Source of the DNA: Eledone cirrhosa
Taxonomy: Eukaryota
Direction of reading: 5' to 3'
NCBI GenBank assembly: GCA_964016885.1
Contig: OZ024742.1
Location: forward strand, 276,954,001-277,018,000
Length of the DNA: 64,000 nt
In this document: positions 23,719 through 37,939 of the stretch, one piece after another
Position numbering within the stretch: the first letter of the stretch is position 1
Layout: each line of letters starts with the position of its first letter
Translations under genes and position numbers: made by a program
Notes under the pieces: model-generated
What the model saw: only the letters and a program-made list of their open reading frames with translations
What the model was told of the DNA's origin: nothing
Database searches by the model: none

Positions 23719-23879
23719 GGAAGAAAGCCTTCGTTTTTGGGGCTCATCTCTCTTTCACTATTTTCCGGTTCATTTTCAGCCGCACAGGTTGAACAAGTTG
23801 GTCATCAGGGCTAATGAAACGTACGTACCTGGTATGACGCCAATGTTGTAACTGGCCTTAATAATTATATATATATATA

Positions 23880-24597
23880 TGTATGCAGTAGATGTACAGG
23901 GAAATTAGACAGTAGAAGTCGCACTGATAGACACATTTTTCAAATGCGAGAGGGCGCTATAGAAGTGGTGGATAGCTTCCGGTACCTAGGAGATCAGATT
24001 AGCATGGGAGGAGGGTGTTCTGAGGCCATAGTATCTAGAATAAGGACGGGTTGGAAGAAGTTTAGGGAGCTGCTTCCTCTGTTGACGAAGAAGGGTTTCT
24101 CCCTGCGTACGAAAGGCCGGTTGTATGATGCCTGTGTGAGGAGCGCGATGCTGCATGGTAGTGAGACATGGGCAGCAACTGCAGAGGATATGCGACGGCT
24201 GGAGAGAAATGAGGCAAGCATGCTCCGTTGGATGTGCAGTGTAAATGTGCGTGAACGACCCAGCATAAATGTGTTGAGAGAGAAACTGTGTCTGAGAGGG
24301 ATAGAATGTAGTGTACGGGAGAGGAGACTGAGGTGGTATGGACATGTGATGCGCATGGAGGATGACCGATGGGTGAAGAAGTGCCAGGAAATGGCAGTTG
24401 AAGGAAGACGTGGTAGAGGTAGACCACGAAAAACATGGGCGGAGGTGGTGAGAACAGACCTCAGATCATTGAAGCTCACGGTGGAGATGACGAGGGACCG
24501 TGACGAGTGGAGAGATGCTGTGCTGAATAAGACCCGTCCCTCCCTTGCAAGCAGGGAAAAGCGGACGTAAAATGATGATGATGATGATGATGATGAT
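23880..24597 (+). mobile_element. 5'-truncated RTE LINE, subfamily A (open ORF2 C-terminus, essentially no 3'UTR)
   Basis: Open frame from 23881 ([48 protein letters not shown]) to stop at 24570; (GAT)n tail; (TA)n on both sides. Confidence 0.93.
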
Positions 24598-25287
24598 ATA
24601 TATATACATATATATATATATATATACATATATATACATATATATATATATACATATATATATATATACATATATATATATATACATATATACATATATA
24701 TATATATATACATATATACATATATATATATATATATACATATATATATATATATATACATATATACATATATATATATATACATATATATATATATATA
24801 CACATATATATATATACATATATACATATATATATATATATACATATACATATATATATATATATATATATATATACATATATATATATATACATATACA
24901 TATATATATATATATATATATATACATATATATATATATATATATACATATATATATATATATATATATACATATATATATATATATATATATATACATA
25001 TATATATATATATATACATATATATATATATATATACATATATATATATATATATACATATATATATATATGTATACATATATATATATATGTATATATA
25101 TATATGTATACATATATATATATATGTATATATATATATGTATATATATATATGTATATATATATATATATGTATATATATATATATATGTATATATATA
25201 TATATATATATATATATATATATATATATATATATATATATACATATATACATATATATATATATATATATATATACATATATACAT
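24598..25287. repeat. (TA)n satellite with CA/TG variants
   Basis: Direct reading. Confidence 0.95.
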
Positions 25288-33412: not shown

Positions 33413-33470
33413 ACCCCCGTCCAAACCCATGCAAGCGTGGAACACGGACGTTAACGTTGATGATGATGAT
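33413..33470 (+). mobile_element. Solo ~57-bp RTE subfamily C 3' terminus
   Basis: CCCCCGTCCAAACCCATGCAAGCGTGGAACACGGACGTTAACGTTGATGATGAT matches 29086-29149 apart from one A; embedded in (TA)n. Confidence 0.9.
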
Positions 33471-36400
33471 ATATATATATATACACATATGTGTATGTGT
33501 ATATATATATATGTGCTATGTGTATATATATATGTGTATGTGTATATATATATATGTGTATGTGTATATATATATATGTGTATGTGTATATATATATATT
33601 GTATATATATATATGTGTATATATATATATGTGTATATATATATATATATATATGTGTATGTGTATATATATATATGTGTATGTGTATATATATATATGT
33701 GTATGTGTATATATATATATATATGTGTATGTGTATATATATATATATATATATGTATATATATATATGTGTATATATATATATATATATATATGTGTAT
33801 ATATCTATATATCTATATGTGTATATATATATATATATCTATATGTGTATATATATATATATATATATGTGTATATATATATATATATATATATGTATAT
33901 ATATGTATATATATATATATGTATATATATGTATATATATATATGTATATATATATATATGTATATATATGTATATATATATATATGTATATATATATAT
34001 ATGTATATATATGTATATATATATATGTATATATATATATATGTATATATATGTATATATATATATATGTATATATATATATATGTATATATATGTATAT
34101 ATATGTATATATATATATATGTATATATATGTATATATATATATATGTATATATATATATATGTATATATATATATATGTATATATATATATATGTATAT
34201 ATATATATATGTATATATATATATATGTATATATATATATATGTATATATATATACATATATATATATATGTATATATATATATATGTATATATATATAT
34301 ATGTATATATGTATATATGTATATATATATATATGTATATATATATATATGTATATATATATATATATGTATATATATGTATATATATATATATATATGT
34401 ATATATATATATGTATATATATATATGTATATATATATATATATATATGTATATATATATATGTATATATATATATGTATATATATATATATATGTATAT
34501 ATATATATATATATATGTATATATATATGTATATATATATATATATGTATATATATATATATATGTATATATATATGTATATATATATATATATGTATAT
34601 ATATGTATATATATATATATGTATATATATATATATGTATATATATATGTATATATATATATATGTATATATATATGTATATATATATATATGTATATAT
34701 ATGTATATATATATATATGTATATATATGTATATATATATATATATGTATATATATGTATATATATGTCTATGTATATATATGTATATATATGTATATAT
34801 ATGTATATATATATATATGTATATATATGTATATATATGTATATATATATATATGTATATATATGTATATATATGTCTATGTATATATATGTATATATAT
34901 GTATATATATATATATATATATATATATGTATATATATTTATATATATATATATGTATATATATGCATATATATATATGTATATATGTATATATATGTAT
35001 ATGTATATATATGTATATATATGTATATATATGTATATATATGTATATATATGTATATGTATATATATGTATATATATATATGTATATATATGTATATGT
35101 ATATATGTGTATATAATATATATGTATATATATGTATATATTATATATGTATATATATGTATAATATATATATGTATATATATGTATATAATATATGTAT
35201 ATATATATGTATATATATGTATATATATATATATGTATATATATGTATATATATATATATGTATATATGTATATATTATGTATATATATATATGTATATA
35301 TATGTATATATATATATATATATATATGTATATATATATTATATGTATATATATGTATATATATATGTATATATATGTATATATATATATATGTATATAT
35401 ATGTATATATATGTATATATATGTATATATATATATATGTATATATATGTATATATATGTATATATATATATATGTATATATATGTATATATATATATAT
35501 GTATATATATGTATATATATGTATATATATATATGTATATATATGTATATATATATATGTATATATATATATATATGTATATATATGTATATGTATATAT
35601 ATATGTATATATATGTATATATATATATATATATGTATATATATATATATGTATATATATATATATGTATATATATATATATATATATATATATATATAT
35701 GTATATATATATATTGTATATATATGTATATATATGTATATATATGTATATTGTATATATATGTATATATGTATATATATGTATATGTATATATAGTATT
35801 ATATATATATATGTATATATATATATGTATATATATGTATATATATATATATGTATATATATGTATATATATATATATGTATATATATGTATATATATAT
35901 ATATGTATATATATGTATATATATGTATATATGTATATGTATATATATGTATATATATATATATGTATATATATGTATATATATATGTATATATATATAT
36001 ATATATATATATATGTATATATATATATGTATATATATGTATATATATATATGTATATATATGTATATGTATATATATGTATATATATATATATGTATAT
36101 ATATGTATATATATATATATGTATATATATGTATATATATATATATATATGTATATATATGTATATATGTATATATATGTATATAGTATATATATGTATA
36201 TATATATATATGTAAATGTATATTATAATATATATGTATATATATATATATATATGATATATATATGTATATATATATATATATATATATGTATATATAT
36301 ATATATATATGTATAGATATATATTATATATATGTATATATATATATATATGTATATATATATATATGTATATATATATATGTATATATATATGTATATA

Positions 36401-37939
36401 TATATATATATGTATATATATTATATATGTATATATATTATATATGTATATATATATATATATATGTATATATATATGTATATATATATGTATATATATA
36501 TGTATATATTATATATATATATATATATACATACGTATATATATATATATATATATTATATATATATATATATATATATATATATGTATATATGTATATA
36601 TATATATATATGTATATATATATATATGTATATATATGTATATATATATATATGTATATATATGTATATATATGATATATATGTATATATATGTATTATA
36701 TGTATATATATGTATATATTATGTATATATATATATATATATGTATATATATATATATATATATATATATGTATATATATATATGTATATATATATATAT
36801 ATATATGTATATATATATATATATATATATATATATGTATATATATATATATATATATATATATATATATTTATATATATATATGTATATATATATATAT
36901 GTATATATATATATATATATGTATATATATATGTATATATATATATGTATATATATATATATGTATATATATATGTATATATATATATATATATATGTAT
37001 ATATATATATATGTATATATATATATATGTATATATATATATATGTATATATATATATATTGTATATATATATATATATGTATATATATATATATGTATA
37101 TATATATATATGTATATATATATATATGTATATATATATATATGTATATATATGTATATGTATATATGTATATATATATATATATATATATATATGTATA
37201 TATGTATATATATATATATATGTATATATATATATGTATATATATATGTATATATATATATATATGTATATATATATATATATATATATATGTATATATA
37301 TATATATGTATATATATATATATGTATATATATTATGTATATATATATATATGTATATATATATATATGTATATATATATATATGTATATATATATATAT
37401 GTATATATATATATATATATATATGTATATATTATATATATATGTATATATGTATATATGTTATATATATATATGTATATATGTATATATATATATATAT
37501 GTATATATGTATATATATTATATATGTATATATGTATATAATATATATATATATATGTATATATATATATGTATATATATATATGTATATATATATATGT
37601 ATATATATGTATATGTATATATATGTATATATATATATATGTATATATATATATATGTATATGTATATATTATATATATATATATATATGTATATATATA
37701 TATATGTATATGTATATATATATATATGTATATATATATATATGTATATATGTATATATGTATATATATGTATATATATGTATATATATGTATATATATG
37801 TATGTATATGTATATATGTATATATGTATATATATATATGTATGTATATATATATATATGTATATATATATATAATGTATATATATATATGTATGTATAT
37901 ATATATATGTATATATATATATATGTATGTATATATATG

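What the first reader, a model, noticed from the sequence alone, without database searches (positions are those of the whole stretch)
23866..37939. (TA)n-embedded array of co-oriented RTE retrotransposons from three subfamilies: candidate microsatellite-targeting LINE system
Seen: five insertions (23880, 25288, 27549, 29575, 33413), each starting directly in TA/CA repeat and ending (GAT)n then (TA)n, all on +. They belong to three nucleotide-divergent subfamilies, two with open ORF2 3' halves. Separate copies at 45050 and 52411 also begin in (TA)n. Established: microsatellite targeting is known for R1, R4/Dong and Tx1 clades, while RTE is usually regarded as non-specific. Inference: this lineage preferentially inserts into (TA)n, possibly by GAT-AT tail pairing or cruciform nicking, and the tracts expand between insertions to build a growing safe-haven array. 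Shared orientation in a palindromic target hints at polarity, but the count is small.
Basis: partly seen in the sequence, partly recalled or inferred. Interest (0 to 1): 0.72.

Follow-up and report, generated by a model that had tools for sequence, protein, structure and literature searches.

The report
TA-seeking LINEs piled in a microsatellite
Three young families of jumping genes sit next to TA repeats about eight times more often than chance across this animal's genome, likely because their cutting and priming steps favour alternating TA, and this array is one such pile-up, with no preferred direction and one copy that is likely a local duplicate.

Summary
The array is real, and so is the TA bias. 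It is a strong preference, not a strict or polar targeting system.

Five RTE-type LINE pieces from three subfamilies (66-74% alike) lie on + inside one TA tract.

Genome-wide, 52 of 93 young copies have a TA-repeat 5' flank. The background is 6-7% of positions, and a same-genome control LINE gives 3 of 23. About 44% of 5' junctions are not in TA repeat.

Polarity fails: TA-joined neighbours elsewhere are 21 co-oriented against 20 opposed.

Copy 4 equals copy 3 outside homopolymers and shares its rare alleles, so it is likely a local duplicate. That leaves about three independent insertions.

A second, unrelated retroelement therefore uses it too.

Junction microhomology fits priming on alternating TA. 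Whether the element's endonuclease or host breaks at fragile TA repeats make the nick is untested.

Earlier unreviewed notes of this scan reported the same TA preference on other DNA of this genome. My searches found no paper on TA-seeking RTEs.

The parts
23866..23876 (.). short TA run at the left edge; the target side of copy 1's 5' junction
23877..24597 (+). copy 1, subfamily A: 5'-truncated ORF2 C-terminus, 3' end and (GAT)8; its first bases ATAT overlap the TA run
   Evidence: 97% to a long A copy; nearest genome copies 99%
24598..25287 (.). TA tract, 690 bases, with C and G interruptions
25288..27484 (+). copy 2, subfamily B: RT and partial PHD region, frameshifted by 13- and 3-base deletions; 3' UTR and (GAT)7
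27485..27548 (.). TA/CA tract, 64 bases
27549..29149 (+). copy 3, subfamily C: open ORF2 3' part, 3' UTR and (GAT)6
   Evidence: 99.2% to a long C copy
27968..28099 (+). C4HC3 PHD finger directly after the RT core in ORF2 (also in copy 4)
   Evidence: Pfam PHD E=1.8e-6; 8 of 8 ligands invariant in 59 of 59 aligned relatives
29150..29573 (.). TA tract, about 425 bases
29574..31105 (+). copy 4, subfamily C: likely local duplicate of copy 3, joined to the tract by a 7-base microhomology
31106..31869 (.). TA tract, 764 bases
31870..32190 (.). fold-back end fragment of a young Penelope-like element (inverted arms of about 130 bases)
32191..33411 (.). TA/TG tract, 1221 bases
33412..33470 (+). copy 5, subfamily C: last 59 bases with (GAT)4
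33471..37939 (.). TA/TG tract, 4469 bases, running into an assembly gap; true length unknown
45050..45509 (+). older related LINE fragment after a 12-base TA run
   Evidence: 75% to B
52411..54152 (+). older related LINE copy after a 10-base TA run, ending in (GAT)5
   Evidence: 71% to A

Best explanation
This is a pile-up of young single-ORF, (GAT)n-tailed LINEs that sit at TA repeats far more often than chance genome-wide, in either direction, likely because the element's own endonuclease nicks alternating TA and its tail primes there. Shown: the anatomy, the 8-9-fold enrichment, random orientation, short junction overlaps, and the near-identity of copies 3 and 4. Inferred: (1) the APE domain nicks at a TpA step, which a tract offers every two bases and on both strands alike; (2) the RNA tail's AU pairs 2-4 bases with the nicked primer; (3) truncated cDNA is joined to the tract through AT/TA microhomology; (4) a long tract is hit repeatedly, and breakage and slippage in it duplicate whole units, as with copy 4. 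The preference is loose, not a dedicated target site.
For: 5' flank TA-rich in 52 of 93 copies against 6.1-7.4% of background positions, p<1e-33; 3' flank in 46 of 89. All three subfamilies show it: 14/27, 14/28 and 21/33. Control LINE 3 of 23, Fisher p=3e-4. Tract lengths on the two sides correlate (rho 0.51), and the same interruption motifs recur on both sides, as for insertion into an existing tract. AT follows the last GAT in 45 of 89. 5' overlap of 2 or more bases in 12 of 27 against 17% expected, p=6e-4. Orientation is 21:20. APE catalytic positions are invariant in 59 of 59 relatives. TA at the cut is reported for other RTEs (PMC13295347).
Against: No biochemical test. Clear target duplications are few and mostly short at non-repeat sites, about 0-7 bases with one of about 25. 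That is shorter than the 7-15 quoted for RTE (PMC6007223) and also fits host-made breaks. An unrelated Penelope-like element uses the same tracts. The upstream T stretch of the published RTE signature appears in only 1 of 15 sites. Copies are the best hits, not a random sample, and background positions come from 31 fixed stretches and are autocorrelated. Junctions could not be checked in reads.
Confidence: 0.55

Rival explanations
1. Host-made breaks. TA repeats form cruciforms that host nucleases cut, and the LINE primes on these ends. The bias would belong to the DNA, not to the element.
For: TA repeats are break hotspots repaired by microhomology (PMC13645644, passages). Target duplications are short or absent. 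A Penelope-like element shares the tracts. Tracts of 1 kb or more hold 9 of 88 copies against 6 of 3720 background points. Palindromic interruption patterns are visible in flanks.
Against: The control LINE of similar age is near background, 3 of 23, p=0.24. Enrichment is already 7-fold for tracts of 20-49 bases. The endonuclease is conserved.
Confidence: 0.2
2. Dedicated, polar microsatellite-targeting system like R1, Tx1 or Dong.
For: Strong enrichment in three diverged subfamilies. An invariant PHD finger in ORF2 could act as a reader.
Against: 41 of 93 5' junctions are not TA-rich. Orientation is 21:20. PHD-bearing relatives in 79 metagenome loci show almost no TA repeat, though short-read contigs break at such tracts.
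Confidence: 0.08
3. The tracts are made or enlarged by insertion (a short duplicated TA next to the GAT tail seeds slippage), or copies in tracts are selectively retained.
For: Some copies have a long tract on one side only: 6 of 88 on the 5' side and 11 of 88 on the 3' side. RTE tails seed microsatellites in moths (PMC2887409, passages).
Against: B and C copies are about 99% identical, so little time has passed. Tract sizes match length-weighted background. The control LINE under the same selection is not enriched.
Confidence: 0.1
4. Assembly mis-joins through TA repeats made the array, or copy 4 in particular.
For: The array ends at an N gap. Copies 3 and 4 differ only in homopolymers.
Against: Copy 4 has its own 5' junction and a different downstream tract. 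Many enriched copies have short tracts bounded by unique DNA. This cannot explain the genome-wide bias.
Confidence: 0.05

Closest known systems
RTE-clade LINEs with the Tn-TA insertion signature (Bov-B, plant RTEs; PMC6007223, PMC13295347)
   Same: Single APE+RT ORF, 5' truncation, microsatellite tail, short tail/target overlap, TA at the insertion point.
   Different: Here over half of the copies lie in TA repeats. The upstream T stretch was seen in 1 of 15 sites, target duplications look shorter, and ORF2 carries a PHD finger. Bov-B copies are said to be rarely flanked by target resembling their tail (PMC13295347, section 4.1).
Microsatellite-specific LINEs of the R1 and Tx1 clades and of R4/Dong, HERO and Togen (PMC4640811; Dong in PMC2887409)
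   Same: Accumulation in a simple repeat and tandem stacking.
   Different: No ORF1, APE rather than a restriction-like endonuclease (against R4), and a loose preference with 44% of 5' junctions off target.
Naiad and Neptune Penelope-like elements with (TA)n insertion bias (PMC8557442)
   Different: Different RT class and a GIY-YIG endonuclease. The PHD finger here lies after the RT core, and its role is untested.
Tandem TE dimers from insertion-site preference (PMC5932611, abstract)
   Same: Repeated insertion at a preferred site gives tandems that later expand by duplication.
   Different: Here the spacers are long TA tracts and several subfamilies are mixed.

Membership tests
RTE clade LINE | single ORF with APE endonuclease and RT | tested here: met
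   1079- and 1041-residue open frames with Exo_endo_phos and RVT_1; fold closest to L1 ORF2p
RTE clade LINE | no ORF1 upstream | tested here: met
   no + strand frame over 114 residues in the 5' region of one long copy, L040
RTE clade LINE | microsatellite 3' tail and frequent 5' truncation | tested here: met
   tails of 2-11 units in 89 of 89 copies; most copies truncated
RTE clade LINE | RT phylogeny grouping with named RTE elements | not tested
   no named RTE sequences were on hand; the RTE label rests on architecture and on my recall of the family's C-terminal motif
RTE clade LINE | target duplication of 7-15 bases | tested here: inconclusive
   hidden inside tracts; mostly 0-7 bases at non-repeat sites, one of about 25
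RTE Tn-TA signature | TA at the start of the duplication | tested here: inconclusive
   base before the duplication is T in 9 of 15; boundaries are ambiguous
RTE Tn-TA signature | TTT about 10 bases upstream | tested here: inconclusive
   1 of 15 against 14% background; small set with ambiguous anchors
Target-specific APE LINEs (R1, Tx1) | nearly all copies in one target repeat | tested here: not met
   52 of 93; 20 of 88 outside tracts
Target-specific APE LINEs (R1, Tx1) | two ORFs with a gag-like ORF1 (recalled) | tested here: not met
R4/Dong | C-terminal restriction-like endonuclease instead of APE | tested here: not met
   N-terminal APE
Penelope-like element (fragment 31870-32190) | RT plus C-terminal GIY-YIG in the parent element | tested here: met
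   774-residue frame in L191: RVT_1 E=7e-7 and GIY-YIG E=2e-4, both just under the curated cut-offs
Penelope-like element (fragment 31870-32190) | inverted truncated copy flanking the unit | tested here: met
   inverted repeats in L191 and L193; fold-backs at varying points in L184, L187, L189 and L190

The most novel reading that the evidence does not exclude
A PHD-finger RTE lineage whose own ORF2 reads alternating TA (or its cruciform) and so seeks TA microsatellites: a third APE-type lineage, besides R1 and Tx1, with repeat-directed insertion, caught at a loose stage, and a main driver of TE stacking in this genome's TA tracts.
Probability: 0.3. Interest if true: 0.62.

Novelty: new variant of a known kind. 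Interest (0 to 1): 0.38.

Why it matters
It gives a measured case of strong microsatellite bias in a LINE group whose known preference is a short motif. With many near-identical young copies and intact ORFs, one can test directly whether TA bias comes from the endonuclease, from the PHD finger or from fragile host DNA. It also explains why LINEs stack in TA tracts in this genome. The array itself is an ordinary by-product of that bias.

Tried and rejected
Polarity: rejected.

Five independent insertions: rejected for copy 4.

The palindrome as a MITE: rejected; other copies run on into an RT and GIY-YIG frame and fold back at different points.

(TA)n as part of the element's tail: rejected; 43 of 89 copies lack a TA-rich 3' flank, and TA is as common on the 5' side.

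Tn-TA T stretch: not seen, small set.

Read support: both read-laying runs skipped the repeat letters, so no junction was tested. The run search gave few holders and no long reads.

Relatives in metagenome contigs: almost no TA repeat in 79 loci, uninformative because of short-read assembly and unknown hosts.

Rfam: 0 matches in 3 loci. The Atlas gave only generic endonuclease clusters. The structure model and PDB searches placed the protein with L1 and R2 ORFs but say nothing on target choice.

Post-insertion tract growth: no median difference.

Full report
What is there. Between 23866 and an assembly gap at 37940 lie 14,074 bases: about 6,110 of LINE, 321 of another repeat, and the rest TA-rich tract. 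The five LINE pieces are at 23877-24597 (subfamily A), 25288-27484 (B), and 27549-29149, 29574-31105 and 33412-33470 (C). All are on +, 5'-truncated, and end in (GAT)n. The subfamilies are 66-74% identical. Long copies elsewhere in the genome carry one open frame of 1041-1079 residues with an APE endonuclease, RT and a PHD finger just after the RT core. One long copy checked has no ORF1. Catalytic positions and all eight PHD ligands are invariant in 59 of 59 aligned sequences, chosen as near-full-length proteins from the 120 best hits listed. The model folds like L1 ORF2p (pLDDT 82). The RTE label rests on this architecture; no tree with named RTEs was built.

Is TA flanking more than chance? 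I searched the own genome (3.0 Gb) with the 3' end of each subfamily. There were 1699, 417 and 1055 first-look candidates, and 40 were scored for each. I examined all 40 hits for C and 30 of 40 for A and for B. I dropped the window's own three copies and four that duplicate a neighbour, leaving 93. A flank counts as TA-rich if at least 60% of steps in 20 bases are TA or AT. At 5' junctions 49 of 88 passed in the first set: A 14/27, B 14/28, C 21/33. With five more it was 52 of 93. At 3' junctions 46 of 89 passed. The background was 6.1% of 199,620 positions in 20 fixed 10-kb stretches and 7.35% of 309,380 in 31 stretches. Enrichment is 8-9-fold, odds ratio 16-19. As a control I used an (ATT)n-tailed LINE family from the same window, whose copies are 93-98% alike. 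By my count, 3 of 23 5' junctions passed, after dropping 4 unresolved and 2 duplicates from 29 loci. Fisher p=3e-4 against the RTEs; p=0.24 against background. The bias is real and specific to the family, but loose: 20 of 88 copies have under 20 bases of alternating tract on both sides together. Caveats: these are best hits, not a random sample, and background points are autocorrelated.

Did the tract come first? Tract lengths on the two sides correlate (rho 0.51; 31 of 88 have 30 or more bases on both sides, against 147 of 3760 background points). The same interruption motifs recur on both sides of several copies. One-sided cases exist (6 and 11 of 88), so edge insertion or some seeding is not excluded. 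Tracts at copies are not longer than length-weighted background (medians 99.5 and 116.5, p=0.92). The class of 1 kb or more is in excess (9 of 88 against 6 of 3720), but on a very thin background.

Polarity. In all fetched non-redundant loci outside the window, family pieces joined only by TA-type tract were 21 co-oriented, 10 tail-to-tail and 10 head-to-head (p=1.0). The co-oriented count includes tandem duplicates. The window also holds minus-strand copies, two of them TA-flanked. Within the array, copy 4 differs from copy 3 at 3 of 1492 bases, all in a poly-C run, whereas other long copies differ from copy 3 at 7-15. The two share six minority alleles, two of them seen in only 1 and 2 of 33 other copies. 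Copy 4 starts at a 7-base match between element and tract. It is most likely a local duplicate made by break repair in the tract. A sister insertion from the same source or a mis-join remain possible, and the tracts after the two copies diverge after about 45 bases. Tandem duplicates with identical junctions occur elsewhere too (L031; L022 and L023). About three independent events in one direction are expected one time in four.

Mechanism. After the last GAT, AT follows in 45 of 89 copies. At 5' junctions in pure TA, the element's first bases continue the tract for 2 or more bases in 12 of 27, against 17% expected (p=6e-4). This fits priming and second-strand joining by short pairing with alternating TA. 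Clear target duplications at non-repeat sites are mostly 0-7 bases, with one of about 25. The published RTE signature is a TA at the cut with TTT one turn upstream (PMC13295347: abstract, results, section 4.1; PMC6007223: passages). The T stretch appeared in 1 of 15 usable sites, against 14% background, which is inconclusive. I infer an endonuclease that favours TpA steps, in a genome where 6-7% of positions offer them in runs. The main rival is host breakage at TA cruciforms (PMC13645644, passages). The control LINE and the 7-fold enrichment at tracts of only 20-49 bases weigh against it as the sole cause.

A second element in the tract. The palindrome at 31870-32190 is the folded-back end of a young repeat (535 candidates, 40 scored at 99-100%). 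A longer copy encodes RT and GIY-YIG, both just under Pfam cut-offs, with inverted truncated copies: a Penelope-like element. TA runs lie in the printed flank of 9 of 9 other copies, judged by eye. A (TA)n bias is described for Naiad Penelope-like elements (PMC8557442, passages). The tract is a shared landing ground, not the preserve of one system.

What could not be tested. Both read-laying runs skipped repeat letters, so no junction was verified, and the runs offered were contigs or RAD reads. PHD-bearing relatives in 79 metagenome loci, several with GAT tails, show almost no TA repeat. This hints that the PHD finger alone does not confer the bias, but such contigs break at repeats.

Literature. 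Target-specific LINEs are placed mostly in early-branching, Tx1 and R1 groups (PMC4640811, passages). RTE tails generate microsatellites in moths (PMC2887409, passages). An octopus RTE was described, with no target analysis in the passages seen (PMC9115989). Insertion preference drives TE tandems in flies (PMC5932611, abstract). PMC5786205 (passages) held nothing on targets. Nine searches found no paper on TA-repeat-seeking RTEs or on a PHD in RTE ORF2. Repbase, subscription papers and supplements were not seen, so this does not prove absence. Earlier unreviewed notes of this scan report the same TA preference, pile-ups and PHD finger on other DNA of this genome. They pointed me to the Tn-TA papers; my counts were made before reading them, except those.

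Verdict. The TA preference is confirmed genome-wide; polarity and strict targeting are not. This is a new variant of a known kind. Interest 0.38; the bolder reading has probability 0.3 and interest 0.62.

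Noticed in passing
window 31870-32190; L191:2104-4425 (-): Young Penelope-like family (99% identical copies) with TA-flanked ends and fold-back truncations at variable points.
   Followed up: partly
window 27968-28099; P0001 residues 819-862: Invariant C4HC3 PHD finger right after the RT core, in a widespread lineage (1269 hits at E<=1e-30 among 7986 scored).
   Followed up: partly
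L038, L045, L112 flanks: TA tracts beside copies carry mirror-inverted interruptions, suggesting hairpin or template-switch events in the tracts.
   Followed up: no
L087, L109, L037 5' junctions: A few extra AT-rich or palindromic bases seem to lie between the target duplication and the element start, possibly untemplated additions.
   Followed up: no
L040:1546-1677 and 2066-2236: The 5' region of subfamily C repeats about 110 bases 520 bases apart, so the true 5' end may be shorter or preceded by a short derivative.
   Followed up: no
window 51856-51899, 48027-48084, 48378-48444, 21797-21824: Tiny 3'-end copies of the RTE family (30-70 bases) on both strands; the first two are flanked by TA on both sides.
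   Followed up: no
window 5140-7202: (ATT)n-tailed LINE family (4048 candidates), used as control; it shows no clear TA bias. Its CR1-like label is my recall.
   Followed up: yes
window 9641-10247, 55575-56197, 59006-59639: Three short tandem arrays of a 208-237-base unit, apparently one SINE-like repeat.
   Followed up: no
L022/L023, L004/L005 (L031), L102/L105: Element-plus-tract units duplicated in tandem or segmentally, with identical junctions.
   Followed up: partly
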